Below, piece by piece: positions 8,253 through 21,549 of a DNA stretch of 40,000 nucleotides. Under the pieces are notes generated by a model that worked only from the letters and a program-made list of their open reading frames with translations, searched no databases and had not been told where the DNA came from. Numbering within the stretch: position 1 is the first letter of the stretch; each line of letters begins with the position of its first letter. The position numbers were made by a program, and so were the translations under genes. Location of the stretch: contig JAPEVH010000061.1 of the NCBI GenBank assembly GCA_026645415.1, forward strand, positions 1 through 40,000, written 5' to 3'. Source of the DNA: Candidatus Electronema sp. Its GTDB lineage: Bacteria > Desulfobacterota > Desulfobulbia > Desulfobulbales > Desulfobulbaceae.

Positions 8253-8933
8253 ATGACAGGAAAAGTCATGCGTAGTCAAGGAACGCTGACCTCTTGGAAT
8301 GACGAAAGAGGATTTGGTTTTATTGCTCCTGATGATGGCAGCAGACAAGTTTTTGTTCACATCAACGCATTCAATAATCGTGGTCTGCGGCCAGAGATCA
8401 ACCAATTGCTGCGCTATACTTTGTCTTCCGACAGCAAGGGACGGCCATGTGCAGAGAATGTTTTATTTGCTGACGAGCGGCGCAGACGTGGCATTGGATC
8501 GTTCGCTGTTGCATTGCTGTTTTTTGCAGTTCTTGCTGTTGCATCTTTTCATCTGAATAAAATTCCTCGCTTGATTTTTTGGTTGTATGTCTTTGTCAGC
8601 CTACTTTCATTTCTTATGTATGCAAAAGACAAATCAGCAGCAAAGAAAGGAAGCTGGCGCACTCCAGAAAGCACCCTGCATCTGCTTTCGCTGTTCTGCG
8701 GCTGGCCGGGCGCATTGATTGCCCAGCAGATCTTGCGGCATAAATCAAAAAAGCAATCATTCCGTTTCGTATTCTGGATAACCGTTTTGCTGAACTGCGC
8801 CGCATTCGTATTGCTGTTCATTCCAGAAGTGTCTGTTGAAATGCAATATTGGCTTGATGTCAAACTAAAATTCTGGATAAGCAACACGGCGAAGCCGCTT
8901 GTTGTCAGCTTGTTGAATTTGTTTGAAAAGTGA
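8253..8933 (+). CDS. Cold-shock-domain / DUF1294 membrane protein
   Basis: The N-terminus has CSD RNP motifs (GTLTSWNDERGFGFIAPDDGSRQVFVHINAF). The C-terminus has hydrophobic helices and the DUF1294-type motif YAKDKSAAKKGSWRTPESTLHLLSLFCGWPGALIAQQILRHKSKK. Confidence 0.8.
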   Translation: MTGKVMRSQGTLTSWNDERGFGFIAPDDGSRQVFVHINAFNNRGLRPEINQLLRYTLSSDSKGRPCAENVLFADERRRRGIGSFAVALLFFAVLAVASFHLNKIPRLIFWLYVFVSLLSFLMYAKDKSAAKKGSWRTPESTLHLLSLFCGWPGALIAQQILRHKSKKQSFRFVFWITVLLNCAAFVLLFIPEVSVEMQYWLDVKLKFWISNTAKPLVVSLLNLFEK

Positions 8934-9611: not shown

Positions 9612-11018
9612 ATGGCTTTTACCCCTTTTGACAAGGTTCAGGATACGTACGACATCGTTGTTATTGGCTCCGGTCTTGGTGGGCTAACCGCTGCCAATCG
9701 GCTGGCTCAGTGCGGCCATCGCATTCTTCTACTAGAGCAGCACCACCACCTTGGTGGTTTAGCAGCGTGGTTCAAACGTGGCGGGCATACGTTTGATGTT
9801 TCCCTGCATGGTTTTCCGCATGGCATGGTTAAAACCTGTAAGAAATATTGGTCAAAAGCAATCTACAACTCCATAGTTCAGCTCAAGAATATTGTTTTTG
9901 ATAACCCGCAGTTCACGCTGACCACAACGTTTTCTAAAGATGATTTTTCCCGCATTCTGCACGAGCAATTCAAGATTGAGCGTAGCGTAGTCGATGATTT
10001 TTTCAATACAGTCAGGGCGATGAATTTTTATGACGACCAGAGCATGACCACCCGTGAGCTGTTTGAAAAGTTCTTTCCGGGTCGCTCTGATGTGCATCGT
10101 CTGCTGATGGAGCCAATCACTTATGCCAACGGTTCGACTTTAGATGAACCGGCTATTACTTATGGGATTGTTTTTTCAAATTTTATGAGCAAGGGTGTGT
10201 TTACCTTTGAAGGCGGCACAGATAAGCTGATTGCCATGATGGCGGATGAGCTGCAAAAAAATGGCGTGACTATCTGCACAGGCGCAAAGGCAGAGCGGGT
10301 TCTGGTAGATAAAGGTAAAGTGCGGGGCGTGCTTGTCAATGGTCGGGAAATTGCAACCAAGGCTGTTGTTTCCAATTCCGGCATCACCAACACCATTGAT
10401 CAGCTTGCGGGCCGCGAGGCATTCAGTGATGATTTTCTCAGTCGTTTTGATAAAGTGGTAGTGAATAACTCTTCTAGCCAAGTCTATTTCGGCATCCGTA
10501 AGGGTGAATTTTTCCCGGATGTAGGCGATCTGCTTTTCACCTCCACTGCGGAGAAGTTCTCTTCTGAGAAAATGCGGCGCAAGGATACGCAAAGCCGCAC
10601 CTTTTCCGTTTATTATCCCAAGACCAGACCTGAAAAACCTGATTATACGGTAGTGGCTTCCATGAATGCCAACTACGATGACTGGGCGGGGCTGGATCCG
10701 CAGATCTACAAACAAGAAAAAGAGGCAATGGCGGAACGTTGTCTATTGGATTTGGAACGCTACATTCCCGGTATTCGCACCAAGATTGACACCGTGGAAA
10801 CAGCCACACCCAAGACCTTTCACCGCTACACCTTGCATACAAGAGGAACTTCTTTTGGCACAAAATTTGAAGGGTTGGATATTTCCCGAACGATTTTCAA
10901 AGAAGTGGGCGGACTATTTCATGTTGGCTCGGTTGGCATCATCATGAGCGGCTGGCTGGGAGCTATCAACTACGGCGTAATTGTTGCCAATGATGCGGAT
11001 GCGTATGTGCGGACGTGA
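9612..11018 (+). CDS. FAD/NAD(P)-dependent oxidoreductase, phytoene-desaturase (CrtI/COG1233)-like; second paralogue
   Basis: 468 aa. The dinucleotide motif is IVVIGSGLGGLTAANRLAQCGHRILLLEQHHHLGG. The overall length and C-terminal G-rich segment (HVGSVGIIMSGWLGAINYG) resemble those of the 6248-7624 product. Confidence 0.75.
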   Translation: MAFTPFDKVQDTYDIVVIGSGLGGLTAANRLAQCGHRILLLEQHHHLGGLAAWFKRGGHTFDVSLHGFPHGMVKTCKKYWSKAIYNSIVQLKNIVFDNPQFTLTTTFSKDDFSRILHEQFKIERSVVDDFFNTVRAMNFYDDQSMTTRELFEKFFPGRSDVHRLLMEPITYANGSTLDEPAITYGIVFSNFMSKGVFTFEGGTDKLIAMMADELQKNGVTICTGAKAERVLVDKGKVRGVLVNGREIATKAVVSNSGITNTIDQLAGREAFSDDFLSRFDKVVVNNSSSQVYFGIRKGEFFPDVGDLLFTSTAEKFSSEKMRRKDTQSRTFSVYYPKTRPEKPDYTVVASMNANYDDWAGLDPQIYKQEKEAMAERCLLDLERYIPGIRTKIDTVETATPKTFHRYTLHTRGTSFGTKFEGLDISRTIFKEVGGLFHVGSVGIIMSGWLGAINYGVIVANDADAYVRT

Positions 11019-11099
11019 GTATTACTGTTCCCGCGCTGGAGCCTGGAATGTGTGATACTTCAACTTATAGCGACAACAACGTTATACCCTGAAGTTGCG

Positions 11100-12653
11100 T
11101 CAGCTAATAAGCAAACTCTCCCCTTCCATCTCCTCTGGCTGCTTCAGCCCCAACAGGTGTAACAGAGTCGGAGCAATATCTTTGAGTGCGCCACTGCTTT
11201 TCAAGGTGCAGCCTTTGTGCTTGTCGCTGACTAAGATCAGCGGCACTGGATTTAGGGTGTGGGCGGTATGCGGCTGACCGGTTTTTTGGTTGAGCATCAT
11301 CTCGGCATTGCCGTGATCAGCCGTAATCAACAAAATACCACCCAGCTCACGCAAGCGTTTGGCAATTCGACCAAGGCAATGATCCACGGTTTCACAGGCT
11401 TTAACTGCTGCCTCTAGCACCCCGGTATGGCCAACCATATCACCATTAGCAAAGTTAAGAATCACCAAATCATAAGGCGTACCTGCGGCCTCCTGCTCGG
11501 CAAGTGCAGCTAAAAGTCGGTCAGTTACTTCCTCTGCGCTCATAGCAGGTTTGAGATCATAAGTAGCCACATCACGCGGTGACTCAATTAAAATGCGGTC
11601 TTCTCCCAAGAAGGGCACCTCGTTGCCACCATTAAAGAAGTAGGTGACATGGGCGTACTTCTCGGTCTCAGCAATCCGTAGCTGGTGTAACCCAGCCCGG
11701 CTTACCTCTTCACCGAGAATACGATTGAGACTAACCGGTGGGAAGGCGATGGGAAAGGAGAAATCCGCCTCATATTCGGTCATGGTCACCAGCTCCAGCA
11801 GCTTGGGCCTGTTATTGACCGCAAAGCCTTTGAAATCAGCATCAGAAAAGGCATGGCACAGTTCACGTACTCGGTCGGCCCGGAAATTAAAAAAGACTAC
11901 CGCATCGCCATCTTGTATCCTGCCTTCCTCAGCAATAATAGTTGGCTGAATAAATTCGTCTGTCTCGCCTCGGTTGTAGGCAGCCTCAATTGCTTGAATT
12001 GGCTCATCTGCTGTCAGTCCCTGCCCGCCGACTATTGCCTGCCAAGCCTTCTCCACCCGATCCCAGCGAGTATCGCGATCCATAGCCCAGTAGCGACCAG
12101 ATACTGTTGCCACTTGGCCGCAGCCGACTTGCTGGACGATTTCCATAAGCTGCTGCATATAGCCTACGCCACTTTTGGGCGGCGTATCACGACCATCCAT
12201 GAAGCAGTGAATCTTGGCTTCGATGCTGCGCGCCGCAGCCATTTGCAGTAACGCAGCGAGGTGACTGATATGAGAATGCACCCCGCCATCCGAAAGCAGA
12301 CCACAGAAGTGTACTCGCGTTCCAGCGGCTTTTACCTTGTCTAATACCGCTGTCAACACTGGATTTGTGGCAAATTCGCCCAGCTCAATCGCCCGGCTGA
12401 TGCGGGTGTAATCCTGATAGACGACCCGACCAGCTCCAATATTCAAATGCCCAACCTCAGAATTACCCATTTGCCCTTCTGGTAGACCAACCGCACCGTT
12501 GTGAGCCACCAAGGTAGTGTAAGGATACTCTGCCGTCCATTTATCCATGTTTGGCGTGTTGGCAACATAGACTGCATTGGTTGGAGAAGGCGGAGCAATG
12601 CCCCAGCCATCTAAAATTGCCAGCATTACAGGTCGTCCAGCAGCAGCCATCAT
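11100..12653 (-). CDS. gpmI: 2,3-bisphosphoglycerate-independent phosphoglycerate mutase
   Basis: 517 aa. Motifs: LAILDGWGIAP, the catalytic Ser region GNSEVGHLNIGAGRVV, FMDGRDTPP, and C-terminal ITADHGNAE. Confidence 0.95.
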   Translation of the reverse strand: MMAAAGRPVMLAILDGWGIAPPSPTNAVYVANTPNMDKWTAEYPYTTLVAHNGAVGLPEGQMGNSEVGHLNIGAGRVVYQDYTRISRAIELGEFATNPVLTAVLDKVKAAGTRVHFCGLLSDGGVHSHISHLAALLQMAAARSIEAKIHCFMDGRDTPPKSGVGYMQQLMEIVQQVGCGQVATVSGRYWAMDRDTRWDRVEKAWQAIVGGQGLTADEPIQAIEAAYNRGETDEFIQPTIIAEEGRIQDGDAVVFFNFRADRVRELCHAFSDADFKGFAVNNRPKLLELVTMTEYEADFSFPIAFPPVSLNRILGEEVSRAGLHQLRIAETEKYAHVTYFFNGGNEVPFLGEDRILIESPRDVATYDLKPAMSAEEVTDRLLAALAEQEAAGTPYDLVILNFANGDMVGHTGVLEAAVKACETVDHCLGRIAKRLRELGGILLITADHGNAEMMLNQKTGQPHTAHTLNPVPLILVSDKHKGCTLKSSGALKDIAPTLLHLLGLKQPEEMEGESLLIS

Positions 12654-13051
12654 TCGCCCTCCTGCTCCTCAATGCCTAATTCCGGCAAGCCTAATCTAGG
12701 CGCATCGTGCCACAAGCCTTCCAGATCATAAAACGCCCGCTGATCTTTGTAGAAAATATGAGCAACCACATCACCAAAATCAAGCAAGACCCAGAGTCCT
12801 TCCTGAAGTCCTTCAGCATGTCTACTGCTAATCCGCTTGGAGTTTAGCTCTGCTTCTATGGCTTCGGCTAAGGCTTGAACGTGCCGCGTGGAACGACCGC
12901 TCATGATGAGAAAATAATCAGCAAACGAGGACTGGCCGCGCACATCTAGGATGGTGAGTTCTTCAGCTTGGGTGTCCAAGGCTATGTGAGCGCAGATAGC
13001 AGACAGTTCGAGCGGGCTGTGTTGTCGATATTCTTTTTTCAGTTGTTGCAT
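12650..13051 (-). CDS. rsfS: Ribosome silencing factor RsfS (iojap family)
   Basis: 133 aa with the signature SFADYFLIMSGRSTRHVQALAEAI and HIFYKDQRAFYDLEGLW. Its stop overlaps the gpmI start (ATGATG/TGA at 12648-12653). Confidence 0.9.
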   Translation of the reverse strand: MQQLKKEYRQHSPLELSAICAHIALDTQAEELTILDVRGQSSFADYFLIMSGRSTRHVQALAEAIEAELNSKRISSRHAEGLQEGLWVLLDFGDVVAHIFYKDQRAFYDLEGLWHDAPRLGLPELGIEEQEGE

Positions 13052-13231
13052 ATTGTTTGTTGATAATTTTTGGATTCAAAACGATGAATCAGCTTTTCTT
13101 GAGAAACGGCTCTTGCCCTTGGCAACTTTAATTCACGACTTTATCACTGGGTTTAGTTAACCAACTTCTTAGGATGACTAATTTGAGAAGCTCAATATCA
13201 GAAATTTGGCAAAGAATGCCTCAATAAATTT

Positions 13232-13699
13232 TTATTGTTCGTTAATGGCACGGCGACAGAGGTTTACAATGATTGTAGTTAATATTGCTACTTGTACAAA
13301 ATTATCTACAGTTGACATCAAGCTAAATCTCATGACCCAAAAACCATTAGCCTTTGAAAGGCTTAAAATGGCTAAGAAAAAAGTCACAACAAGATTCGAT
13401 ATTGATAGATAATAAATACAAAAAAATACATCGAGATACCCTTTTTTTTTATACTTTTTGAAAGTTACAGAGCCAGCAAAAGAAAAGAGTATTGTAATTA
13501 CAGCAGATAAAAAACCAAGCATTGTAAACGAAAATGTCGCTATAATTACAGCAAGATTGCTTTTTTGGGCTGCTATACTCATTGAGTAACATGGATATAT
13601 TTCAACGAGTTTGTGATACAGACAATGAAAGATTGGACCAGGTAGCAACGTCATTAAACCGTACAATATCGTCAGGGGTATCTTTCTTGAAGGATTCAT
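13232..13699 (-). CDS. Small multi-pass membrane protein, orphan (3 TM from ATG 13582; 4 TM if the 13699 start is used)
   Basis: Hydrophobic segments: LAVIIATFSFTMLGFLSAVITILFSF, VFFCIYYLSISNLVVTFFLAILSL, VDNFVQVAILTTIIVNL. The longest ORF overlaps the upstream gene by 98 nt. The ATG at 13582 lies 19 nt after that gene's stop. The sequence is very AT-rich with no SD. Confidence 0.5.
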   Translation of the reverse strand: MNPSRKIPLTILYGLMTLLPGPIFHCLYHKLVEIYPCYSMSIAAQKSNLAVIIATFSFTMLGFLSAVITILFSFAGSVTFKKYKKKGYLDVFFCIYYLSISNLVVTFFLAILSLSKANGFWVMRFSLMSTVDNFVQVAILTTIIVNLCRRAINEQ

Positions 13700-14537
13700 C
13701 TGACCTGTATTCCTTTAGTTTGTCTATCAGGATTTGATTGCCGGTTGCTTTATTCTCCAACAGTGCTGGAATTTCGTCTTCTTGACTTTTATCGATATGG
13801 TTAGAAACAGCTCCTTTTCCAACCAAGTAAATGTCTAACAGTTGCGATGATACTTCGTCTTTACATTTCAGTATCATTTTTTCAACACCTTCATCGGAAA
13901 TTTTATCCAAAAGTTTTCCACTAACTTCTTTTATATTTTTACCTCTTTTTGGTTTAATAGTTATTTCTATGCTTTTAAGATCATGGCAGTCTTCCGTGTT
14001 TACGGATATCACATTTAAAAGATCTTGAAAAAAAGAATTCTCTTTTGATATTTCAATACTTGTTTTTCCGATAATACTATTAAATATAAACGCCTCGTCT
14101 TTTGTTGCTTGATGCAGTATCGCTCTCGCTTTAAATCTCCAAATTTCAATCCCTATTTTCTTGAAAAGATCATCAATATATTCCGCAAAAACATTCACCT
14201 TTGGTGCCAGCACTGTCGATGCAATTCCAAAATAATCTTCTTTAACAAGAAGATAAGAGGCAAAACTTACCTGTTCTTTTTGAGAAAGAAATTCACTTAT
14301 TGATATATCTGCCGGATTTATTTTTTTTATTAACTCTTTGTTTCTTGTCATAAGAAAAAGAAATATATCACCTTTAAGGTGAACCAGATATATATGTTCA
14401 TCCTTTTTCATAAATTTGTTTTTAAACTCTGGGTTATCTACTTTACAGAAAATTTTTAAAAAAGATCTCATGTCGAAAAGAAATTTTTGTTCATTATCAG
14501 CATTTAACAGATAGTATCCAAAGTACGTTACTTTCAT
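13602..14537 (-). CDS. Hypothetical 311-aa soluble protein with no recognisable family
   Basis: This is a long uninterrupted ORF in ~26% G+C DNA, where stop codons would be frequent by chance. It is Lys/Glu/Ile/Phe-rich. I see no P-loop, GxSxG, HNH or Rossmann motif. Confidence 0.6.
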   Translation of the reverse strand: MKVTYFGYYLLNADNEQKFLFDMRSFLKIFCKVDNPEFKNKFMKKDEHIYLVHLKGDIFLFLMTRNKELIKKINPADISISEFLSQKEQVSFASYLLVKEDYFGIASTVLAPKVNVFAEYIDDLFKKIGIEIWRFKARAILHQATKDEAFIFNSIIGKTSIEISKENSFFQDLLNVISVNTEDCHDLKSIEITIKPKRGKNIKEVSGKLLDKISDEGVEKMILKCKDEVSSQLLDIYLVGKGAVSNHIDKSQEDEIPALLENKATGNQILIDKLKEYRSDESFKKDTPDDIVRFNDVATWSNLSLSVSQTR

Positions 14538-14645
14538 GTTATTTTCAGTAAAGTTTTATCTGAAGTTTTCTCGTTCACGCTCCAGCATGAGAACTTCCCA
14601 CCACAAAAGGTGGGTTCCTCCGTGCCGCCCCTGAGTTTGAGCAGC

Positions 14646-17111
14646 TTATTCGCCTTGTTGATCTTTGCCCCGCGCTTTTCGTGGTGGAAACTCAAACGTC
14701 ACTTTGCCCTTGCCGTCTATGAGGAGATAGGCATCAAAAGGCCGCTTTCTTTTAGAAATAAAGCCGTTGATCAGCTCAGTCTTTCCCTCTGTGAGAAGCT
14801 GACGGATATGCTCTGGACTAATAGCGCGCTCCAGAATGATCTTGCCGATCCGCAGACCATTTTTCTGGTCACCTGCTAAGGCAGCTTCCGACATATAGGC
14901 CATTGGTGTTTCATAGACCTCTGTTTGATCAATCGGGGAACGACCAAGCGATTTCTGTTCTTTGATTGCCTCCAAATCCAAGTTGTCTGTTGAATCAGCA
15001 AATTGGAAAGAAACCTTGGAATCTTTGATCAACACTGAGGCCGTAAAGGGCTTGCCTTTTTTGGAGCGGAAATCCGTGTACGGCCCGACGGTCTCGCCCT
15101 TGATCAGGCAGACAATTTCCTCCTCTTCCATAATCCGCCCGCCAAGAATTTTGCGGATAATCAGTTTCCGGTCTTCGGATTCATACGCCGTGGTGGTCTC
15201 AAAAAAGCGTTTGCCTTCAACTGGCGAGAAAGATGCTTCTTGGCGAGCCGGGCCACCTGCCTTGACCTTTTCCACGATGGTGGAGGTCTGTTGGCGGATT
15301 TCCTGCATAAACTGCTCGCGGGTCATGCTGCCCTTGATGATCTGATTGAGCTTAAACTCCCATTCGCCGGTCAGTTCTGGCGAAGCCAGCACATCTATTT
15401 TCTGCGCTTCGAGCAAGGCAAGCAACTCAAAGCCCTTGCCGGTTGGCACCAATTCTTTCTGCTCACGTACCATATATTTTTCTGAGAGCAGCTTTTCAAT
15501 GATGGCTGCCCGGGTGGCCGGTGTACCAAGGCCGCGTTCCTTCATCGCCTCTGCCAGTTCCTCATCCTCGACCAGCTTACCAGAGTGCTCCATTGCTGAG
15601 AGCAGGGTAGCTTCATTGAAACGGGGCGGCGGCTTTGTTTCTAGCTTTTTCTGCTCAATCTCAGCGCATAAAACTGCTGTTTTCGCAGGCAGAGCTTCCA
15701 GCGTCTTGGCATCACCTGCACCCGCTGTTGCGCCATAAACCGCTTTCCAGCCCGGCTCAATCAGAATTTTACCTTCCGTGAGAAAGGTCTCGCCTTCAAC
15801 AATAGATAAACGCCGGGTCTGATCAAAAATTGCTGCTGGAAAGAAGACCGCAATAAACCGCTGCACGATCATCTGATAAATCTTCAGCTCGGCCTCGTTC
15901 AGGCTGCTCGGCAAATTAGCCGTGGGAATGAGGGCAAAGTGGTCGCTAATCTTCTTGTTGTTAAAGACCCGCTTGTTTTTCGCATTTTTTTCAGGGAAGC
16001 CTTGAGCCAAGGCTTCGGCAGCAAAGCGGCCATGCTGCCACTGCTGCTGCTTAGTCAGCACCTCTTTTACTTGGGGTAGATAATCTTCAGGCAGGCAAGA
16101 GCTTTCTGTGCGCGGATAGGTGATCAGCTTGTGCTGCTCGTACAGAGCTTGGGCTAAACCAAGCGTATTTTTTGCCGAAAAACCAAAACGGGAGTTCGCT
16201 TCGCGCTGCAAGGTGGTTAGGTCGTAGAGCGCGGACGGTGCTTGACTGGTCTTCTTGCTCTCCTCCTCAACTTTTGCCTTTTTGCCCGCGCATTTTGCCG
16301 CGATCAGCGTGGCTTGCTGTTCATCCCAGATACGCTTCTTATTGCCGTCCGGGTCATCTTGGTCTTTCTTAAAGGTGGCATCAATCCACACGGCCTGATA
16401 CGCAACCGAGCCACACTGGAACTGGGCATGTAATTCCCAATAATCCTTAGAAACAAAGGCCCGCCGCTCTGCCTCGCGCTTGACCAGAAGGGAGAGAGTC
16501 GGGGTCTGTACTCTGCCGCAAGGCGTTTTGCGGAAACCACCGTGGCGCGAGTTGTAGCAGGTCAAGGCACGGGTGGCATTGATGCCGATCAGCCAATCAG
16601 CCTCAGAACGGCACAGGGCAGCGTGTTCAAGCGGCACCATTTCCTGATCCTCGCGCAGATGGCGCAGGCCAGACTTGATTGCGTCCAAGGTCATGGATTG
16701 AAGCCAGAGCCTGCGTACGGTTTTACCCTGCGGCGGCTGAGAAAAAATTTGCCGGAAGATGTATTTAAAAATCAGCTCGCCCTCGCGACCCGCGTCGCAG
16801 GCGTTGATAATCACATCCACCTCTTTTCGCCGGAACAGCTTACTCAGCGCGGTAAATTGGGCTTTAGTTTCCGGTAAAACAGTGAGGGGAAAGACCTCCG
16901 GCAGGATGGGCAAATTCTCCAAATCCCATTTGTGAAAAATCGGGTCGATTTCCTCTGGAAAGCCGATAGTAACTAAATGGCCAATGGCGTAGGAAACAAT
17001 ATAGTCGTTGCCTTCAAAATGAGTCTTTTGTCGGTCGAAATTGCCAGGTAAGGCTTTGACAATGTCAGCGGCTACACTGGGTTTTTCGGCGATGATGAGG
17101 GTCTTTGGCAT
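14646..17111 (-). CDS. topB: DNA topoisomerase III (type IA) with two C-terminal Toprim_Crpt-type repeats
   Basis: 821 aa. The Toprim N-terminus is TLIIAEKPSVAADI, and the active-site Tyr context is HKLITYPRTESSCLP. The C-terminal duplicated module is GPYTDFRSKKGKPFTASVLIKDSKVSFQF / INGFISKRKRPFDAYLLIDGKGKVTFEF. Confidence 0.9.
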   Translation of the reverse strand: MPKTLIIAEKPSVAADIVKALPGNFDRQKTHFEGNDYIVSYAIGHLVTIGFPEEIDPIFHKWDLENLPILPEVFPLTVLPETKAQFTALSKLFRRKEVDVIINACDAGREGELIFKYIFRQIFSQPPQGKTVRRLWLQSMTLDAIKSGLRHLREDQEMVPLEHAALCRSEADWLIGINATRALTCYNSRHGGFRKTPCGRVQTPTLSLLVKREAERRAFVSKDYWELHAQFQCGSVAYQAVWIDATFKKDQDDPDGNKKRIWDEQQATLIAAKCAGKKAKVEEESKKTSQAPSALYDLTTLQREANSRFGFSAKNTLGLAQALYEQHKLITYPRTESSCLPEDYLPQVKEVLTKQQQWQHGRFAAEALAQGFPEKNAKNKRVFNNKKISDHFALIPTANLPSSLNEAELKIYQMIVQRFIAVFFPAAIFDQTRRLSIVEGETFLTEGKILIEPGWKAVYGATAGAGDAKTLEALPAKTAVLCAEIEQKKLETKPPPRFNEATLLSAMEHSGKLVEDEELAEAMKERGLGTPATRAAIIEKLLSEKYMVREQKELVPTGKGFELLALLEAQKIDVLASPELTGEWEFKLNQIIKGSMTREQFMQEIRQQTSTIVEKVKAGGPARQEASFSPVEGKRFFETTTAYESEDRKLIIRKILGGRIMEEEEIVCLIKGETVGPYTDFRSKKGKPFTASVLIKDSKVSFQFADSTDNLDLEAIKEQKSLGRSPIDQTEVYETPMAYMSEAALAGDQKNGLRIGKIILERAISPEHIRQLLTEGKTELINGFISKRKRPFDAYLLIDGKGKVTFEFPPRKARGKDQQGE

Positions 17112-17331
17112 TGTCTAATGTAGATTAAACGAGATCAAGGCTGCACAATATGAGCAGCCGTCAATTTCAATAGAGAAAAATACTTGGTTAAGCCAGACGG
17201 ATTCTGGGTTAAAGGCAGAAGCTGGCTGGCTTGAGCTAGAAAACTGCTGCATTGAAACCAGAACATTTCTCCGTTTTTCCTGTCATTCATTTGTCAAGTG
17301 CAGTAGAAGCCACTGACTTCCGCCATTGTAT

Positions 17332-17613
17332 TCAATATACTTCATCATGTGTGCCAACTGCTTCCAGCAAAATTGCCTCGTTGACTGAGTCATCCACAAA
17401 AGAAAAGACTATTCTCAAATCGTAGGCAACACTGCACGCCCACGATCCTTCAAGATTTCCTTTTACTTTATGCGTTTTCAGAGATGGATGGAAAGCATCC
17501 GTAGCAAGTAGCTCCAATACTGTGCGGAAGCTGGCTGCCAAATGAGGCTTCTTTTTAAGGAGCTGTTTTGCGCTCCGAGCAAACGCGCTGGACTTCAGCA
17601 GAGGTCTGTTCAT
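17332..17613 (-). CDS. Type II toxin, RelE/ParE superfamily (YafQ/RelE-like mRNA interferase)
   Basis: 93 aa with a typical family pattern: HPSLKTHKVKGNLEGSWACSVAYDLRIVFSF...ILLEAVGTHDEVY. It overlaps the upstream small gene by 4 nt. Confidence 0.8.
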   Translation of the reverse strand: MNRPLLKSSAFARSAKQLLKKKPHLAASFRTVLELLATDAFHPSLKTHKVKGNLEGSWACSVAYDLRIVFSFVDDSVNEAILLEAVGTHDEVY

Positions 17614-17840
17614 AACAGAAGCGACTGCATGATCTCATCAGGATTTTCAGGATGCAGCTTGCCAGCTTTGTGTTCTTCTCTCGCCAAAGCAACAAGCGAA
17701 GCAATTTCCTGTCGGCGACTATTTGCTATTCGCCTGCGAATAACATCAATGAGAGATTCCTGTTCCTCTAACGAGAGATTGTCAGCAGCTTCCAATATTT
17801 CATTGAATGAAATAGCTTGATTCATAAGACATATCAACAT
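17610..17840 (-). CDS. Cognate antitoxin (small acidic/helical protein; alternative ATG at 17825)
   Basis: 71-76 aa, located immediately upstream of the toxin and overlapping it by 4 nt. Its helical, charged sequence (LSLEEQESLIDVIRRRIANSRRQEI) is typical of such partners. Confidence 0.65.
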   Translation of the reverse strand: MLICLMNQAISFNEILEAADNLSLEEQESLIDVIRRRIANSRRQEIASLVALAREEHKAGKLHPENPDEIMQSLLL

Positions 17841-17887
17841 TTTATTTTTGTTCTATATCCCGGCTTAGGGAATTCACTACACAGGAA

Positions 17888-18265
17888 TCAACCATACACC
17901 TTGGCTGGGTCAAAGACCAGCTCGCCTTGTACTTCCAGTTCTTCGCCCTGTACTTTGCGATAAAAGCAACTTTTATATCCGGTATGGCAAGCTGCTCCAC
18001 CGAGCTGTTCAACTTTAAATACCACAGTATCTAAGTCACAATCCACGAAAATTTCTTTCACAATCTGCACATGGCCGGAAGATTCTCCTTTCAGCCAGAG
18101 CTTGCTGCGCGAGCGACTCCAATAATGCACCTTACCGGTTTCCAAAGTTTTCTGCCAAGATTCTTGATTGATATAGGCCAACATCAGGATTTCGCCAGTG
18201 GCTGCGTCCTGCGCAATAGCCGGGAGAAGGCCATCAACGGCTTTCGTGAAATTAAGATCGAGCAT
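17888..18265 (-). CDS. hisI: Phosphoribosyl-AMP cyclohydrolase (monofunctional)
   Basis: 125 aa. Motifs: [70 protein letters not shown]. Confidence 0.92.
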
Positions 18266-18296
18266 TTTCGTCTAAAAAAATAAGGAAACAATATGT

Positions 18297-18818
18297 TCAG
18301 TATATCTGAAAGATAAACCATGCCACCATAATTCCGGCAAGAAACATTTTGGCGGCCACTCCACTGATAAAACCGAGAAAAGAGCCAATGCCGGAATGAA
18401 GAGCCTGCTTAATCTGCTCACCCATCAACAACTCGCCGACAATAGCACCAAGCAGCGGGCCAATCAAAATACCCAGCGGGCCGATAACAAAAACCAGCAG
18501 CGAACCAAGAGCTGCCCCCCATGCTGCTGCCTTAGAGCCGCCAAATTTTCGTACCCCCCAAGCAGTGGCAAGAAAATCAATTACGTAGCCAAGAGCAATC
18601 AATACACCTTGACCAATAAAGAACCAGAGCGAGAGGCTATCAAAGCCGGTAATCAGACCATACACTAAGAAACCACCTGCAATGAGAATGGTGCCGGGCA
18701 AGGCTGGAAAGACGATACCCATAAATCCAGCAACGATCAAGGGCATTGCAGCCAGAAAGGCCCAGCAATGGACATTAGCAAAGGTGGCCGCATACAAGGA
18801 GTAAAGCCAGTCAGTCAT
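18297..18818 (-). CDS. DUF456-family inner-membrane protein (the ORF track extends to a TTG at 18854)
   Basis: Gly-rich multi-TM protein (FPALPGTILIAGGFLVYG, GSLLVFVIGPLGILIGPLLGAIVGE). The ATG at 18818 has a GGAGG 13 nt upstream. Confidence 0.7.
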   Translation of the reverse strand: MTDWLYSLYAATFANVHCWAFLAAMPLIVAGFMGIVFPALPGTILIAGGFLVYGLITGFDSLSLWFFIGQGVLIALGYVIDFLATAWGVRKFGGSKAAAWGAALGSLLVFVIGPLGILIGPLLGAIVGELLMGEQIKQALHSGIGSFLGFISGVAAKMFLAGIMVAWFIFQIY

Positions 18819-18917
18819 AAATGAAGCAGTACCTCCAAATATGCGGAAGGTCAAAAGAGAGAAGGCTCAAGACAAAGTGTCGTCCTGAGCCTTGGAAAAA
18901 TTGCCACCCGCAAGCAA

Positions 18918-19832
18918 TTACTGTTTCTGAGCTGGTGCTTGGTTTTGCTCAGGCAGGAGCATTTTCTGCTTCATTTTATTTTTTTCCCTGTAATTTTTTT
19001 GGGAAATCTGTGAAATGAGCACATTGTTATTGATTCTACAGTTTTTGAGGTCATTGCCAGTTTGCTCAAGAGCTGCACCTCGCTCCTCAACCATTTTCTC
19101 TAAGCCAATAACCTGAGCACGGAGCGTATCTGCATCAGTAAGCACTTTGTCGCGCTCTTCTTCCAGTTGCTGATTGGCTGCTTCTGCATCTTTCAGCTCA
19201 CCCTGAAGCTTCTCCATGTCAGTGACCTGCACTTTACACGCCTTAAGCTGCTTCTGCTCCTGCTCAATGATTTGTGCAGCACCAGTCAGCTTTTGTTCCT
19301 GCTCTTCCAATGCGGTTTTCTGCTGAGAAAGCTGTTGCTCCAATGCGGTCTTTTGTTGAGAAAACTGTTTTTCCAAGCCTGTTTTTTCTTCAGCACACTG
19401 TATAGAGAGACTCTCCATTTGTGCCTGCATTGCTTGCTGCTTCTTAGCCGCTTCTGCTGTTGAAGATTTTTTCATCTCCTCAGTAGCCTTCAGCAGATTT
19501 TCTTTCTCGCTCTGAAGAGCCTTGACAGCTTCTTCCTGCGCTGCTGTTTTCTCTGCCAAAGATTGGCTTCCCTCTTGCAGCTCATTTATCTTCTGTTGCG
19601 CATTGCTTAAACGACTCTGCGCTTGTTTTAGCTCATCTTTTTGCCGCTCCATCTCTGCTCGCAGCTCGCCGCTGATTTTAACAGCATCTTTGCTCTCTTT
19701 GACCTGAGTCTGCAAAGCTACTTTGTCTCTGACAAGCTGCTTACGTTTCCCAGCCTCATTTTGTCCCCAAATTGCTGAAATCAGCATTAGCGCAACAAGC
19801 GCCGCAATAACAAAGTTTTTGTTGATCTGCAT
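18918..19832 (-). CDS. N-terminally anchored coiled-coil protein (Gln/Glu/Lys/Ala-rich)
   Basis: 304 aa. An N-terminal hydrophobic segment (FVIAALVALMLISAIWG) is followed by continuous heptad-like low-complexity sequence. There is an internal 33-bp tandem duplication at 19308-19373. Confidence 0.6.
   Translation of the reverse strand: MQINKNFVIAALVALMLISAIWGQNEAGKRKQLVRDKVALQTQVKESKDAVKISGELRAEMERQKDELKQAQSRLSNAQQKINELQEGSQSLAEKTAAQEEAVKALQSEKENLLKATEEMKKSSTAEAAKKQQAMQAQMESLSIQCAEEKTGLEKQFSQQKTALEQQLSQQKTALEEQEQKLTGAAQIIEQEQKQLKACKVQVTDMEKLQGELKDAEAANQQLEEERDKVLTDADTLRAQVIGLEKMVEERGAALEQTGNDLKNCRINNNVLISQISQKNYREKNKMKQKMLLPEQNQAPAQKQ
19308..19373. repeat. Tandem 33-bp coding duplication inside the coiled-coil gene
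   Basis: Units 19308-19340 and 19341-19373 are identical at 27/33 positions. They encode the reiterated LSQQKTALE segment. Confidence 0.7.
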
Positions 19833-19878
19833 TGTCCTGCTCCTGTTGAATTAACCTGTTTTTTGTCCAACGCCCTGT

Positions 19879-21549
19879 TTAGCCTTTGCCAGTTCCTGCT
19901 AGTTCTTTATCCACACTGTTCAGATTACGCCGCACTTTGTCCTCCATGCGTGAACGGGGATATTTCCGCAGAATGTCTTCCAGCAAAGCCTTGGAAGAGC
20001 GTAACAGTGCTTTTTTGGCTGAAGGGTCTGCGGTAGTATCAGCCTGTTGAAATAATTCAGCGGCTTTTTTGCGGAGATCTTCGGCCGCAAGCTGCTCCGC
20101 CTCTTCAATTTTGCTCTCTGCCTTGACTGCAAAGGAAGTGCCGGACAATTTGGAAAAGAGGCTAACCGACTCATCATATTTACCCTGTTGCAGCAGCAAA
20201 ATTCCCTTATCCCATAATTCCTGCAACGCATCACCAGGCTCAGGCAGAGGAGCAGGAGAGGCATTTTGTGCAACGTGATCCGGCGCAAACGATTGGGCAG
20301 TTTCAGTAGCAGAGGTCAGTTCTGCTTTTTTCTGACGAATGGTATCCTGTTTGTCTAACGGAAGAATATCTAAAGGCACTTGCTCTAGCCGTTCCAAGGC
20401 TTCTTTTTGCTTTCCTTGTTCTTGGAGTCGATCCGCCTCATCCAGTAAATCCTCAAACCACTGCTCCGCCTTTTTTCCAACCTGCTGTGAGAGACGTTCT
20501 GCATCCTTCAGCAAGAGAGAATCTTGATGCAGGCGAATAAATTCAGTTGCCTGCTGGACAATTGTAAAGCCATCCCTCTCAGGATTGTAGGACAGGCAGC
20601 CGAGCAAAAGATCCGCATAGGCTTCTAGCTCGTCCCGACGAGTAACAGAAGTAGCTAAGGCTGCCAATTGTCTGCTGTACCGATCCGATGAACTATCTAT
20701 CCGCCGTAGTTCCTCATATTTCACCCGCGCAGCAGAAAAATCACGCAGGGCAAAGTCGAGATCAGCAAGCATTGCCAGTATTTTAATCTCCATCTGCTGA
20801 TTTTCTTGCTGGCGAACCTCGGCAAGGAGATTACTTAAAAGACGTTTGGCCTCCTCTTTTTGGCCTGCTTGTAACAACGCGAGACCATGCTTGTAACGAC
20901 TGCCACTGTCATCTTGCCCTGCATTATTGCTTACGGTTTTGCTCGTATCATAAGCTGCCGGAAGCTGAGAGGCTGTTTCTTCTTGCTGAGTATTTGGAGT
21001 AATGTTTTGGCTGCTAGGAGTGCTTAATTTTTCAAAAAGTTGTGGACAGGCTCCTTCCAGATAGGCAATATCTTTCCCTTTAAACTCTTGTAACGATTTG
21101 AAAAGCAGTGCTCTGGAAGCCTCCATAGATTTTTCTTGCAGCAACTTTTCTTGCAGTCCTTTATAAGCCTCTTGTAGATCAGCAACTGTATTACGACAAG
21201 TAATGATCTGCTCAATTTCGTTGGAACTAAGTCGCAAGGTATCTTGACTATTGCCTATTTTTTGCCAATCTGCAAGTTTTTGTCCATACGAAGTAATACG
21301 CCCATTAATGGTAGCCAAGGCAGGCTCTATCACCTGTTTTTCGTATGCAGCCTGCTCTTCTGGGCTGAAGCTCGGCTCCTGTGGCGCAGTGGACAGTGTT
21401 TGCGCCTCAGCCGCAGGGCCAGATTTATCAGGATGAAGCTGGCCTTCAATACCGGTAGAAGGTAAGCAGCCACTTAGAAGCAGCGGAGCGGCCAGCCCCA
21501 AAAGCAACAGACTTCGGCCACGCAGAACAGTAGCAGATGAAAGGAACAT
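19879..21549 (-). CDS. TPR-like / coiled-coil lipoprotein
   Basis: 556 aa. Signal peptide with lipobox LLLSG|C. TPR-like helices include YKHGLALLQAGQKEEAKRLLSNLL and WDKGILLLQQGKYDESVSLFSKL. Confidence 0.65.
   Translation of the reverse strand: MFLSSATVLRGRSLLLLGLAAPLLLSGCLPSTGIEGQLHPDKSGPAAEAQTLSTAPQEPSFSPEEQAAYEKQVIEPALATINGRITSYGQKLADWQKIGNSQDTLRLSSNEIEQIITCRNTVADLQEAYKGLQEKLLQEKSMEASRALLFKSLQEFKGKDIAYLEGACPQLFEKLSTPSSQNITPNTQQEETASQLPAAYDTSKTVSNNAGQDDSGSRYKHGLALLQAGQKEEAKRLLSNLLAEVRQQENQQMEIKILAMLADLDFALRDFSAARVKYEELRRIDSSSDRYSRQLAALATSVTRRDELEAYADLLLGCLSYNPERDGFTIVQQATEFIRLHQDSLLLKDAERLSQQVGKKAEQWFEDLLDEADRLQEQGKQKEALERLEQVPLDILPLDKQDTIRQKKAELTSATETAQSFAPDHVAQNASPAPLPEPGDALQELWDKGILLLQQGKYDESVSLFSKLSGTSFAVKAESKIEEAEQLAAEDLRKKAAELFQQADTTADPSAKKALLRSSKALLEDILRKYPRSRMEDKVRRNLNSVDKELAGTGKG

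What the first reader, a model, noticed from the sequence alone, without database searches (positions are those of the whole stretch)
13100..14645. AT-rich two-gene cassette (311-aa orphan plus small multi-TM protein) between rsfS and topB: candidate undescribed defence or abortive-infection module
Seen in the sequence:
- Hand-counted G+C is 25% (13441-13500) and 27% (14041-14100), against 55% in neighbouring topB (15541-15600).
- Neither gene has a Shine-Dalgarno sequence, whereas several native genes here do.
- The cassette runs co-directionally with a housekeeping string (topB > cassette > rsfS > gpmI), with 108-nt and 180-nt spacers.
- The 311-aa product carries no motif I can assign: no P-loop, GxSxG, HNH, PD-(D/E)xK or Rossmann motif.
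- The downstream product is a 116-155-aa protein with 3-4 hydrophobic helices. It starts either 19 nt after the upstream gene or overlaps it by 98 nt.
- A RelE/ParE toxin-antitoxin pair lies 2.8 kb away.

Established knowledge: a soluble sensor or enzyme paired with a small TM effector recurs in anti-phage systems (Kiwa KwaA/KwaB, TM effectors of CBASS and Pycsar). Such systems are typically compositionally foreign.

Inference: this is a horizontally acquired two-component module of unknown, possibly membrane-disrupting, function.
Basis: partly seen in the sequence, partly recalled or inferred. Interest (0 to 1): 0.75.

Follow-up and report, generated by a model that had tools for sequence, protein, structure and literature searches.

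The report
RexAB phage-exclusion cassette in cable bacterium
The AT-rich two-gene "orphan" cassette is a clear homologue of the long-known phage lambda RexA/RexB exclusion system, a DNA-binding sensor plus a four-helix membrane effector, sitting without any prophage in a variable slot of a cable-bacterium chromosome, so it is a new member of a known defence family, not an undescribed system.

Summary
Two co-directional ORFs (311 aa, 13602-14537; 155 aa, 13232-13699, minus strand) lie in a 31.6% G+C patch between topB and rsfS; the rest of the window is 45.8%.

The "orphan" reading does not hold. The 311-aa protein is RexA (Pfam PF15969, E 1.6e-54; PADLOC RexA, 3.7e-55). Its only significant PDB fold match is lambda RexA 8TWQ (E 3e-16). 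The small protein is RexB (PADLOC 4.1e-26; 27% identity to lambda RexB, E 7e-11) with four predicted long helices.

The host is a cable bacterium close to Candidatus Electronema. topB-rsfS adjacency is conserved in 75 Desulfobulbales loci (median gap 82 nt), and none of the 80 loci scanned carries rexAB. Other Electronema genomes hold different cargo in the same slot: PDC-M38 (ATPase plus DUF3226) and MNT/HepT. The slot is therefore a defence hotspot.

The 98-nt rexA/rexB overlap is real. All 10 related loci examined overlap by 86-134 nt, whereas lambda has a 15-nt gap. This settles the rexB start at 13699.

Most likely function: RexAB-type abortive infection by membrane disruption, inferred by homology.

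Verdict: new member of a known kind; modest interest.

The parts
13602..14537 (-). rexA homologue, 311 aa: soluble, predicted DNA-binding sensor/activator. It belongs to the long form of RexA, with a C-terminal tail of about 30 residues beyond lambda RexA (279 aa).
   Evidence: Pfam RexA PF15969 E 1.6e-54, 185.5 bits against a cut-off of 25. PADLOC RexA 3.7e-55. PHROG RexA-like 8e-31. phmmer to PDB 8TWQ lambda RexA, E 1.2e-19. The AF2 model (pLDDT 74) has lambda RexA as its only significant Foldseek PDB hit: E 3e-16, TM 0.58-0.63. The N-terminus aligns from M1 with 13 homologues.
13232..13699 (-). rexB homologue, 155 aa: four-helix inner-membrane effector. The true start is the ATG at 13699, not 13582.
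   Evidence: PADLOC RexB 4.1e-26, covering residues 17-150 against profile positions 11-140 of 141. Pfam RexB 28.8 bits against a cut-off of 27. BLASTP against lambda RexB: 27% identity, E 7e-11. hhalign 95%. AF2 pLDDT 85 with helices 3-34, 46-73, 88-112 and 119-153. Residues 1-39 are conserved in 10 other loci.
13602..13699 (-). 98-nt out-of-frame overlap. It encodes both the RexA C-terminal tail (residues 280-311, including invariant W300) and the RexB N-terminus with the first membrane helix (motif SRK...L.PGP..LIY).
   Evidence: All 10 other loci of this RexA clade overlap by 86-134 nt. Lambda and Klebsiella phage ST101-KPC2phi6.1 have a 15-nt gap. Conservation is seen in both frames. Gene callers truncate or miss RexB.
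14538..14645 (-). 108-nt spacer between topB and rexA, with two hairpins. The second hairpin (about 14573-14594, GTTCTCATGCTGGAGCGTGAAC) is a host-lineage leader. Other Electronema genomes have it in front of a different cargo gene.
   Evidence: The RNA fold of the spacer has z -2.7. blastn and alignment to L023, L004 and L008 place the same element just upstream of the PDC-M38A start. No sigma-70-like promoter and no intrinsic terminator was found in this spacer.
13052..13231 (-). 180-nt spacer between rexB and rsfS. The proximal ~53 nt (13052-13104) is homologous to the rsfS upstream region of Electronema relatives. The remainder is specific to the cassette.
   Evidence: blastn homology to L004, L005, L006, L008 and L023 ends at window 13079-13104 (alignment). 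No minus-strand terminator follows rexB.
13105..14558 (-). Approximate extent of the acquired DNA (about 1.45 kb): essentially the two genes with minimal flanks.
   Evidence: Set by the flank-homology limits and the composition step. There are no flanking direct or inverted repeats and no tRNA. None of the neighbouring ORFs that were Pfam-scanned is an integrase or a phage gene.
14646..17111 (-). topB (type IA topoisomerase): conserved upstream flank of the slot.
   Evidence: Pfam Topoisom_bac 2e-115. 80-83% identity to Ca. Electronema spp..
12650..13051 (-). rsfS: conserved downstream flank of the slot, followed by gpmI (11100-12653).
   Evidence: Pfam RsfS 8.7e-31 and iPGM_N 4e-83. Synteny holds in 75 loci.

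Best explanation
The cassette is a RexAB-type phage-exclusion (abortive-infection) system. It was acquired horizontally and sits without any prophage in the topB-rsfS intergenic slot of a cable bacterium related to Candidatus Electronema.

Shown here:
- The 311-aa protein is a RexA homologue with the lambda RexA fold.
- The 155-aa protein is a RexB homologue with four long hydrophobic helices.
- The genes are adjacent, in the lambda order, and overlap by 98 nt.
- The cassette is absent from relatives, and the slot carries other defence cargo in sister genomes.

Inferred from the characterised systems (lambda, mycobacteriophage Sbash, Gordonia phage CarolAnn, P. putida RexABpp):
- RexA, a dimeric non-specific DNA-binding protein, responds to an infection-associated signal and activates RexB.
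- Activated RexB compromises the cytoplasmic membrane. Membrane potential, integrity and ATP are lost, growth of the infected cell stops, and the infection aborts.
- Rex activity depends on the RexA:RexB ratio. The conserved overlap, which puts the rexB start codon and first membrane helix inside the rexA 3' end, most plausibly couples RexB translation to RexA translation and so fixes that ratio.
- Expression probably comes from topB read-through or from signals in the conserved host leader, because no repressor gene or own promoter is evident.
For: Family assignment:
- RexA: Pfam E 1.6e-54; PADLOC 3.7e-55; PHROG 8e-31; PDB 8TWQ E 1.2e-19 by sequence and Foldseek E 3e-16 by fold.
- RexB: PADLOC 4.1e-26; Pfam above the gathering score; BLASTP to lambda RexB E 7e-11; hhalign 95%.
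- Four helices by hydropathy and AF2.
- Gene order is the same as in lambda.

Foreign origin and hotspot:
- G+C is 31.6% against 45.8%.
- rexAB is absent from 80 related topB loci. The normal topB-rsfS gap has a median of 82 nt.
- Electronema relatives carry PDC-M38A/B (3e-71 and 1.4e-67) and MNT/HepT in the same slot. One Desulfobulbaceae MAG (L049) carries a C5 methyltransferase cassette.

Overlap: conserved in all 10 other clade loci, including four IMG/VR viral contigs.

Mechanism from literature:
- RexA is a DNA-binding dimer that interacts with the four-TM RexB (PMC11077077).
- RexBpp causes RexA-stimulated membrane damage, and activity is sensitive to stoichiometry (PMC12894663).
- In lambda, the rexB-only promoter PLIT lies in the 3' end of rexA (bioRxiv 10.1101/2021.04.19.439022).
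Against: - There are no functional data for this locus or for any member of the long-RexA clade.
- No repressor (cI/cro-like) neighbours are present here, unlike lambda and several clade members (L003, L084, L087). Regulation therefore differs and is unknown.
- No promoter or terminator was detected by the simple scans.
- rexA has no Shine-Dalgarno sequence.
- The acidic residue in TM3 of lambda RexB, proposed as a proton sink, is Asn here.
- The Pfam RexB score is only just above its cut-off (28.8 against 27).
- Even for lambda, the trigger and the channel activity of RexB are not settled.
Confidence: 0.8

Rival explanations
1. One reading: an undescribed, family-less two-gene defence or Abi module.
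For: NCBIfam has no model for either protein.
Against: Both proteins score strongly against the named RexA and RexB models in Pfam, PADLOC and PHROGs. RexA also matches the solved lambda RexA structure by sequence and by fold.
Confidence: 0.02
2. An inert remnant: the last surviving piece of a decayed prophage immunity region, kept by chance and no longer functional.
For: RexAB is mostly prophage-borne (PMC9090908). Clade members L003, L084 and L087 sit next to cI/Cro-like HTH pairs. Here there is no repressor, no obvious promoter and no Shine-Dalgarno sequence for rexA.
Against: - Both ORFs are intact and full length, and they keep the clade-invariant residues.
- The dual-coding overlap is intact.
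- There is no other phage debris. The foreign DNA is only about 1.45 kb, with clean junctions into conserved flanks.
- Sister genomes carry other complete defence cassettes at the same slot, which points to cassette exchange and not prophage decay.
Confidence: 0.1
3. A non-defence role. RexB would act mainly as an inhibitor of ClpXP/ClpAP proteolysis, for example stabilising antitoxins such as that of the YafQ/RelE-type pair 2.8 kb away. RexA would act as a DNA-binding modulator.
For: Lambda RexB inhibits Clp-dependent degradation of lambda O, Phd and MazE. Lambda RexA acts on the CI/Cro switch independently of RexB (PMC11077077 introduction). A YafQ-family toxin gene is nearby.
Against: - There is no CI/Cro switch here for RexA to act on.
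- The toxin-antitoxin pair lies in a separate variable slot on the other side of topB, so linkage is probably coincidental.
- The strict A-B pairing and conserved overlap across the clade argue for a joint function.
- The slot's other occupants are defence-type cassettes.
Confidence: 0.08

Closest known systems
Bacteriophage lambda RexA/RexB exclusion system (Pfam PF15969/PF15968; RexA structure PDB 8TWQ)
   Same: - Two genes in the same order and strand.
- RexA: 28% identity over about 210 residues and the same fold.
- RexB: 27% identity, collinear, with four membrane helices.
- The genes are AT-richer than their surroundings in lambda too.
   Different: - Not in a prophage, and with no cI/cro or operators.
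- RexA is about 32 residues longer at the C-terminus.
- rexA and rexB overlap by 98 nt, against a 15-nt gap in lambda.
- The acidic TM3 residue of lambda RexB is Asn here.
- The host is a Desulfobulbaceae cable bacterium, not an enterobacterium.
Long-RexA clade in metagenomes, Vibrio cortegadensis, Endozoicomonas and IMG/VR viral contigs (P0002-P0014; L002, L003, L084-L088, L091-L094). Unnamed in databases.
   Same: - 33-71% identity in RexA and 34-52% in RexB.
- Same length class (305-325 aa).
- Same 86-134-nt overlap and the same RexB N-terminal motif.
   Different: Several members sit in prophage- or immunity-like contexts next to HTH repressor pairs, or on viral contigs. The window copy is a bare cassette between housekeeping genes.
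Pseudomonas putida prophage P1 RexABpp (PP_5643/PP_5644), and the actinobacteriophage pairs Sbash gp30/31 and CarolAnn gp44/43
   Same: These are experimentally supported RexAB-type systems. A DNA-binding RexA-like protein stimulates a four-TM RexB-like effector, which damages the membrane. Both genes are required, and activity is sensitive to stoichiometry (PMC12894663, PMC11077077).
   Different: They are much more distant from lambda: detectable only by HHpred or structure for RexApp, with no RexB sequence similarity. They are prophage-encoded. The window proteins are ordinary sequence-level members of the Pfam families.
PDC-M38 (AAA_15/21 ATPase plus DUF3226; AbiLi-like): the cargo of the same topB-rsfS slot in other Ca. 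Electronema genomes
   Same: It occupies the identical chromosomal slot behind the same conserved hairpin leader. It is a two-gene candidate defence cassette of lower G+C than its flanks.
   Different: The proteins are unrelated, so it is an alternative occupant and not a homologue.

Membership tests
RexA (Pfam PF15969) | Sequence match to the family profile above the curated threshold | tested here: met
   185.5 bits against a gathering score of 25, E 1.6e-54, covering 1-232 of the protein and 1-234 of 235 profile positions. PADLOC RexA 3.7e-55.
RexA (Pfam PF15969) | Fold of lambda RexA: a split globular domain plus a beta-sheet/helix dimerisation domain (PDB 8TWQ) | tested here: met
   In the Foldseek PDB search of the AF2 model (pLDDT 74, pTM 0.67), 8TWQ chains A and B are the only hits with E <= 0.001. 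E is 3e-16, TM 0.58-0.63, over about 300 columns. The rmsd of about 6 Å is consistent with a hinge difference or the moderate model quality.
RexA (Pfam PF15969) | Homodimer with non-specific dsDNA binding | not testable with these tools
   Known for lambda RexA, Sbash gp30, CarolAnn gp44, Toast gp42 and RexApp (PMC11077077, PMC12894663). Requires SEC-MALS and EMSA on the purified 311-aa protein.
RexB (Pfam PF15968) | Sequence match to the family profile | tested here: met
   Pfam 28.8 bits against a cut-off of 27, which is marginal. PADLOC RexB 4.1e-26. BLASTP to lambda RexB E 7e-11. hhalign probability 95%.
RexB (Pfam PF15968) | Small inner-membrane protein with four transmembrane helices | tested here: met
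   Collinear alignment with lambda RexB, and hydropathy peaks. AF2 model with pLDDT 85 and four long helices. This holds only for the 155-aa form starting at 13699.
RexB (Pfam PF15968) | Acidic residue in TM3 (lambda E in ...SFVELG...), proposed as a proton sink | tested here: not met
   The aligned position is N102 here, and it is N, C, S or H across the clade. This residue is a proposal in the lambda literature (bioRxiv 10.1101/2021.04.19.439022). It is not a family-defining criterion.
RexAB system (as detected by DefenseFinder/PADLOC) | rexA immediately followed by rexB on the same strand | tested here: met
   The genes overlap by 98 nt.
RexAB system (lambda-type genomic setting) | Located in a prophage immunity region downstream of a CI-like repressor and transcribed with it | tested here: not met
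   - Flanked by topB and rsfS-gpmI. Among the Pfam-scanned neighbouring ORFs (9612-21549) there is no HTH repressor, integrase or phage gene, and the window has no tRNA.
- The setting is met in clade members L003, L084 and L087.
- This is a feature of context, not of family membership.
RexAB system | Both genes required for exclusion of superinfecting phage. RexA excess triggers RexB-dependent membrane failure. | not testable with these tools
   Needs cloning, phage challenge and membrane-potential assays.

The most novel reading that the evidence does not exclude
Two linked readings go beyond 'another RexAB' and are not excluded by the evidence.

(1) The long-RexA clade, to which most RexA-like proteins found by the profile search belong, uses a conserved 86-134-nt dual-coding overlap. 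The RexA C-terminal tail and the first membrane helix of RexB are read from the same DNA. This may be a hard-wired translational-coupling device that sets the RexA:RexB ratio on which Rex activity depends. It has gone unnoticed because gene callers systematically truncate or miss RexB.

(2) In freshwater cable bacteria the topB-rsfS gap is a hot-swappable defence slot. Unrelated cassettes (RexAB, PDC-M38, MNT/HepT) are exchanged behind a conserved host-supplied hairpin leader, inside what may be a housekeeping transcription unit. A membrane-collapsing Abi system in a filamentous, electrically conductive organism could have consequences beyond the single cell.
Probability: 0.4. Interest if true: 0.45.

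Novelty: new member of a known kind. Interest (0 to 1): 0.3.

Why it matters
The headline claim of an undescribed defence system does not survive, because this is RexAB, the oldest known phage-exclusion system.

What remains useful:
- It documents RexAB outside a prophage and in Desulfobulbaceae cable bacteria. The DefenseFinder survey found RexAB mostly in prophages and only in Proteobacteria (PMC9090908).
- It shows that RexB in this clade is systematically mis-annotated. The start is truncated or the gene is missed, because the true gene overlaps rexA by about 100 nt. This depresses automated detection of the system.
- The conserved overlap offers a testable handle on the stoichiometry dependence of Rex.
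- It identifies the topB-rsfS gap, and a second gap on the other side of topB, as variable-cargo slots in Ca. Electronema. This helps in mining the defence repertoire of an uncultured, ecologically important group.

Tried and rejected
- NCBIfam scan: no family for either protein.
- Simple promoter and terminator scan of 12900-14900. Promoter-like sites were fewer than in shuffles (2 against 6.1), and both lie inside rexA, none in the spacer upstream of it. The terminator-like sites lie inside coding sequence or on the wrong strand.
- Repeat search for flanking direct or inverted repeats or att-like sites: only short matches at chance level.
- tRNA scan of the window: none.
- Rfam at a permissive threshold over 12000-18500: nothing.
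- Foldseek of the RexB model against BFVD: no hit with E <= 0.001. Simple helical bundles are uninformative. Sbash's uncharacterised membrane protein appears only at rank 25, E 1.4.
- Cluster look-up to name the organism or protein: no names are held.
- A functional link to the nearby YafQ/RelE pair: rejected as unsupported, since that pair lies in a different variable slot.
- The 116-aa RexB start at 13582: rejected. It removes TM1, which is conserved in all clade loci and aligns with lambda RexB TM1.
Full report
OBSERVATION

One is 13602..14537 (311 aa). The other is 13232..13699 (155 aa), or 116 aa if it starts at 13582.

The spacers are 108 nt from the topB stop and 180 nt to the rsfS start. 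The two ORFs overlap by 98 nt.

The composition step is real. The cassette is 31.6% G+C against 45.8% for the rest of the window. GC3 is 0.26 and 0.29, against 0.49-0.58 in rsfS, gpmI and topB.

Pfam confirms the neighbours as a type IA topoisomerase, RsfS and iPGM. It also confirms a YafQ/RelE-family toxin with an upstream 76-aa partner 2.8 kb away.

WHAT THE GENES ARE

The 311-aa protein is not an orphan.
- It matches Pfam RexA (PF15969) at E 1.6e-54: 185.5 bits against a cut-off of 25, nearly end to end on the profile.
- It matches PADLOC RexA at 3.7e-55 and a PHROG annotated "RexA-like exclusion protein" at 8e-31.
- It matches the solved lambda RexA chain 8TWQ at E 1.2e-19.
- tblastn against phage genomes finds lambda, 434, SfI and related phages at about 28% identity under annotated rexA genes.
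- An AlphaFold2 model built on 14 homologues (pLDDT 74) has lambda RexA as its only significant PDB neighbour: Foldseek E 3e-16, TM 0.58-0.63.

The 155-aa protein is RexB.
- It matches PADLOC RexB at 4.1e-26 and Pfam RexB just above its gathering score.
- It is 27% identical to lambda RexB, E 7e-11.
- Profile-to-sequence comparison gives 95% probability.
- It aligns collinearly with lambda RexB and is modelled with pLDDT 85 as four long helices: 3-34, 46-73, 88-112 and 119-153.

NCBIfam has no model for either protein. Public records give the closest homologues no name. This is presumably why the pair looks anonymous.

WHICH START FOR rexB

The PADLOC alignment already begins at residue 17 of the 155-aa form.

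I located rexB by tblastn in six further loci carrying close RexA relatives (metagenomes, Vibrio cortegadensis) and in four IMG/VR viral contigs. In every one the RexB frame is open and conserved from residues 1-11 of the 155-aa form, and it overlaps the 3' end of rexA by 86-134 nt. In lambda and in Klebsiella phage ST101-KPC2phi6.1 the genes are separated by 15 nt.

The overlap region is conserved in both frames.
- The RexB N-terminus carries the motif SRK..L....L.PGP..LIY, which forms the first membrane helix.
- The RexA tail carries an invariant Trp (W300) and conserved DE.F and I.RF positions.

The start is therefore 13699, and the 98-nt overlap is a clade hallmark.

Gene callers handled this badly. 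The window's own RexB is on record only as the 116-aa truncation. In most related contigs RexB was not called at all or was called as 107-140 aa.

HOW BIG THE FAMILY IS

A profile of the 14 RexA sequences, searched against 1.84 billion cluster representatives, found only 295 proteins at E <= 1e-3 and 221 at E <= 1e-30. Most are 305-325 aa long. RexA is thus a small family, and the long form, not lambda's 279-aa form, is the commoner one in sequence space.

WHERE IT SITS

TopB is 80-83% identical to Candidatus Electronema species and 76-77% identical to Ca. Electrothrix. The window therefore comes from a cable bacterium of, or next to, Ca. Electronema (Desulfobulbaceae).

The topB-rsfS(-gpmI) order is conserved in 75 Desulfobulbales loci. 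The median intergenic gap is 82 nt, and 67 of the 75 loci have a gap of 200 nt or less. None of the 80 loci contains rexA or rexB.

Gaps over 600 nt occur only in the five Electronema loci that include both genes and in one other Desulfobulbaceae MAG, and they contain other cargo.
- L004, L006, L008 and L023: an AAA_15/AAA_21 ATPase plus a DUF3226 protein. These match PADLOC PDC-M38A/B at 3e-71 and 1.4e-67 and are AbiLi-like.
- L006 and L007: an MNT nucleotidyltransferase and HepT toxin-antitoxin pair.
- L005: a 130-aa membrane protein.
- L049: a C5 cytosine methyltransferase with a small partner.

Homology between the window and these genomes runs from topB into the first ~90 nt of the spacer. 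That stretch includes a hairpin element (window 14573-14594, GTTCTCATGCTGGAGCGTGAAC) which in L023, L004 and L008 lies just upstream of the PDC-M38A start codon. Homology resumes about 53 nt upstream of rsfS.

The RexAB-specific DNA is therefore about 1.45 kb (~13105-14558): two genes with minimal flanks. No flanking repeats, tRNA, integrase or phage genes are present.

This pattern is cassette replacement at a lineage-specific hotspot, not prophage decay.

HOW IT MOST LIKELY WORKS

Shown here: homology, fold, membrane architecture, gene order, overlap, foreign origin and defence-slot context.

Inferred from characterised systems:
- RexA is a dimeric, non-specific DNA-binding protein with an RdgC-like fold that interacts with the four-TM RexB (PMC11077077).
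- In P. putida RexABpp, RexA excess stimulates RexB to damage the membrane, seen as dye uptake and enzyme leakage, and growth stops. Defence is sensitive to the A:B stoichiometry, as it is in lambda (PMC12894663).

I therefore assign RexAB-type abortive infection by membrane disruption as the function.
- Confidence that these are RexA/RexB family members: about 0.97.
- Confidence that the locus works as an Abi-type exclusion system: about 0.7.

In lambda, a rexB-only promoter (PLIT) is embedded in the 3' end of rexA (bioRxiv 10.1101/2021.04.19.439022). In this clade the 3' end of rexA instead contains the rexB start and its first helix. The simplest reading is translational coupling that fixes the RexA:RexB ratio. 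This is inference only.

Regulation must differ from lambda. There is no cI/cro here, whereas clade members L003, L084 and L087 do sit beside HTH repressor pairs. No promoter or terminator was recognisable in the spacers. topB read-through, or signals in the conserved leader, are the likely source of expression.

RIVALS
- An undescribed system: refuted by the family hits.
- An inert prophage remnant (about 0.1). Argued against by intact ORFs, the intact overlap, clean junctions and alternative cassettes in the same slot.
- A non-defence role, with RexB as a Clp-protease inhibitor stabilising antitoxins and RexA as a DNA-binding modulator (about 0.08). This is possible in principle, given lambda's side activities. 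However, there is no switch to modulate, and the nearby toxin-antitoxin pair lies in a separate variable slot.

COMPARISON AND NOVELTY

This is a sequence-level member of the RexA and RexB families and would be called "Rex" by PADLOC-type tools, provided RexB is predicted correctly.

It differs from lambda in five ways:
- no prophage or repressor context;
- a RexA C-terminal tail of about 32 residues;
- the 98-nt overlap;
- Asn in place of the acidic TM3 residue of lambda RexB;
- its host phylum.

The DefenseFinder survey reported RexAB mostly in prophages and only in Proteobacteria (PMC9090908). The P. putida paper counts only five described RexAB-like systems (PMC12894663). A chromosomal, prophage-free copy in a cable bacterium is thus a modest extension. 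The conserved overlap and the mis-annotation it causes appear not to have been described; neither is mentioned in the papers I read.

I classify the finding as a new member of a known kind, with interest 0.3.

DEAD ENDS

The following gave nothing useful: NCBIfam, Rfam, the tRNA scan, the repeat search, the promoter and terminator scan, the BFVD fold search for RexB, and the cluster-name look-up.

Noticed in passing
window 17111-18297 (hisI 17888-18265; YafQ/RelE-type toxin 17332-17613; 76-aa partner 17610-17840): The gap between the DUF456 gene and the topB start is a second variable slot. The window carries hisI plus a YafQ-family toxin-antitoxin pair there. Electronema relatives carry unrelated cargo at the same place: a 332-aa Zn-ribbon protein in L004, a DUF4160-like/DUF2442-like small pair plus a TM protein in L005, and a 241-288-aa protein in L008 and L023. 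No hisI or toxin-antitoxin homologue was found in any of the 80 topB loci.
   Followed up: partly
L004 8529-10251; L006 5819-7517; L008 8490-10317; L023 8534-10301: Four other Ca. Electronema genomes carry, in the topB-rsfS slot, an AAA_15/21 ATPase plus a DUF3226 protein. These match PADLOC candidate system PDC-M38 (3e-71 and 1.4e-67) and are AbiLi-like. In L004, L006 and L008 the two genes overlap by 14-32 nt; in L023 they are separated by 1 nt.
   Followed up: partly
window 14573-14594 (and L023 ~8485-8520, L004, L008): A conserved hairpin element, GTTC(C/T)CATGC-TGGA-GCGTG(GG)AAC, lies downstream of topB. It is retained in front of whichever cargo gene occupies the slot. The window copy has lost two stem bases. 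Its function is unknown: it could be a topB 3' structure, a processing site or a regulatory leader.
   Followed up: partly
L006 5415-5705 and L007 8473-9089: An MNT (NTP_transf_2, PDC-S09-like) and HepT-like toxin-antitoxin pair sits directly after topB in two Electronema-related genomes. In L006 it lies upstream of the PDC-M38 cassette, so the slot can hold stacked cargo.
   Followed up: no
P0162 (176 aa, 1176-bp Logan contig): A 99%-identical RexB variant from another sequencing run has a different, longer C-terminus (…CRRLDFKILNF…). This suggests a frameshift or indel allele of rexB in a related population.
   Followed up: no
L085 1-8586: This metagenomic contig carrying a clade RexAB is flanked by mirror-image copies of the same genes: 440, 213/208, 125, 94/93 and 59/67 aa on both sides in opposite orientation. 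It is either a large inverted repeat or an assembly artefact.
   Followed up: no
L084 1-1304: The RexAB-bearing prophage-like contig L084 also encodes TIR-domain (ThsB_TIR, TIR_2) and SLATT proteins a few kb away. RexAB is therefore clustered with other defence genes there.
   Followed up: no
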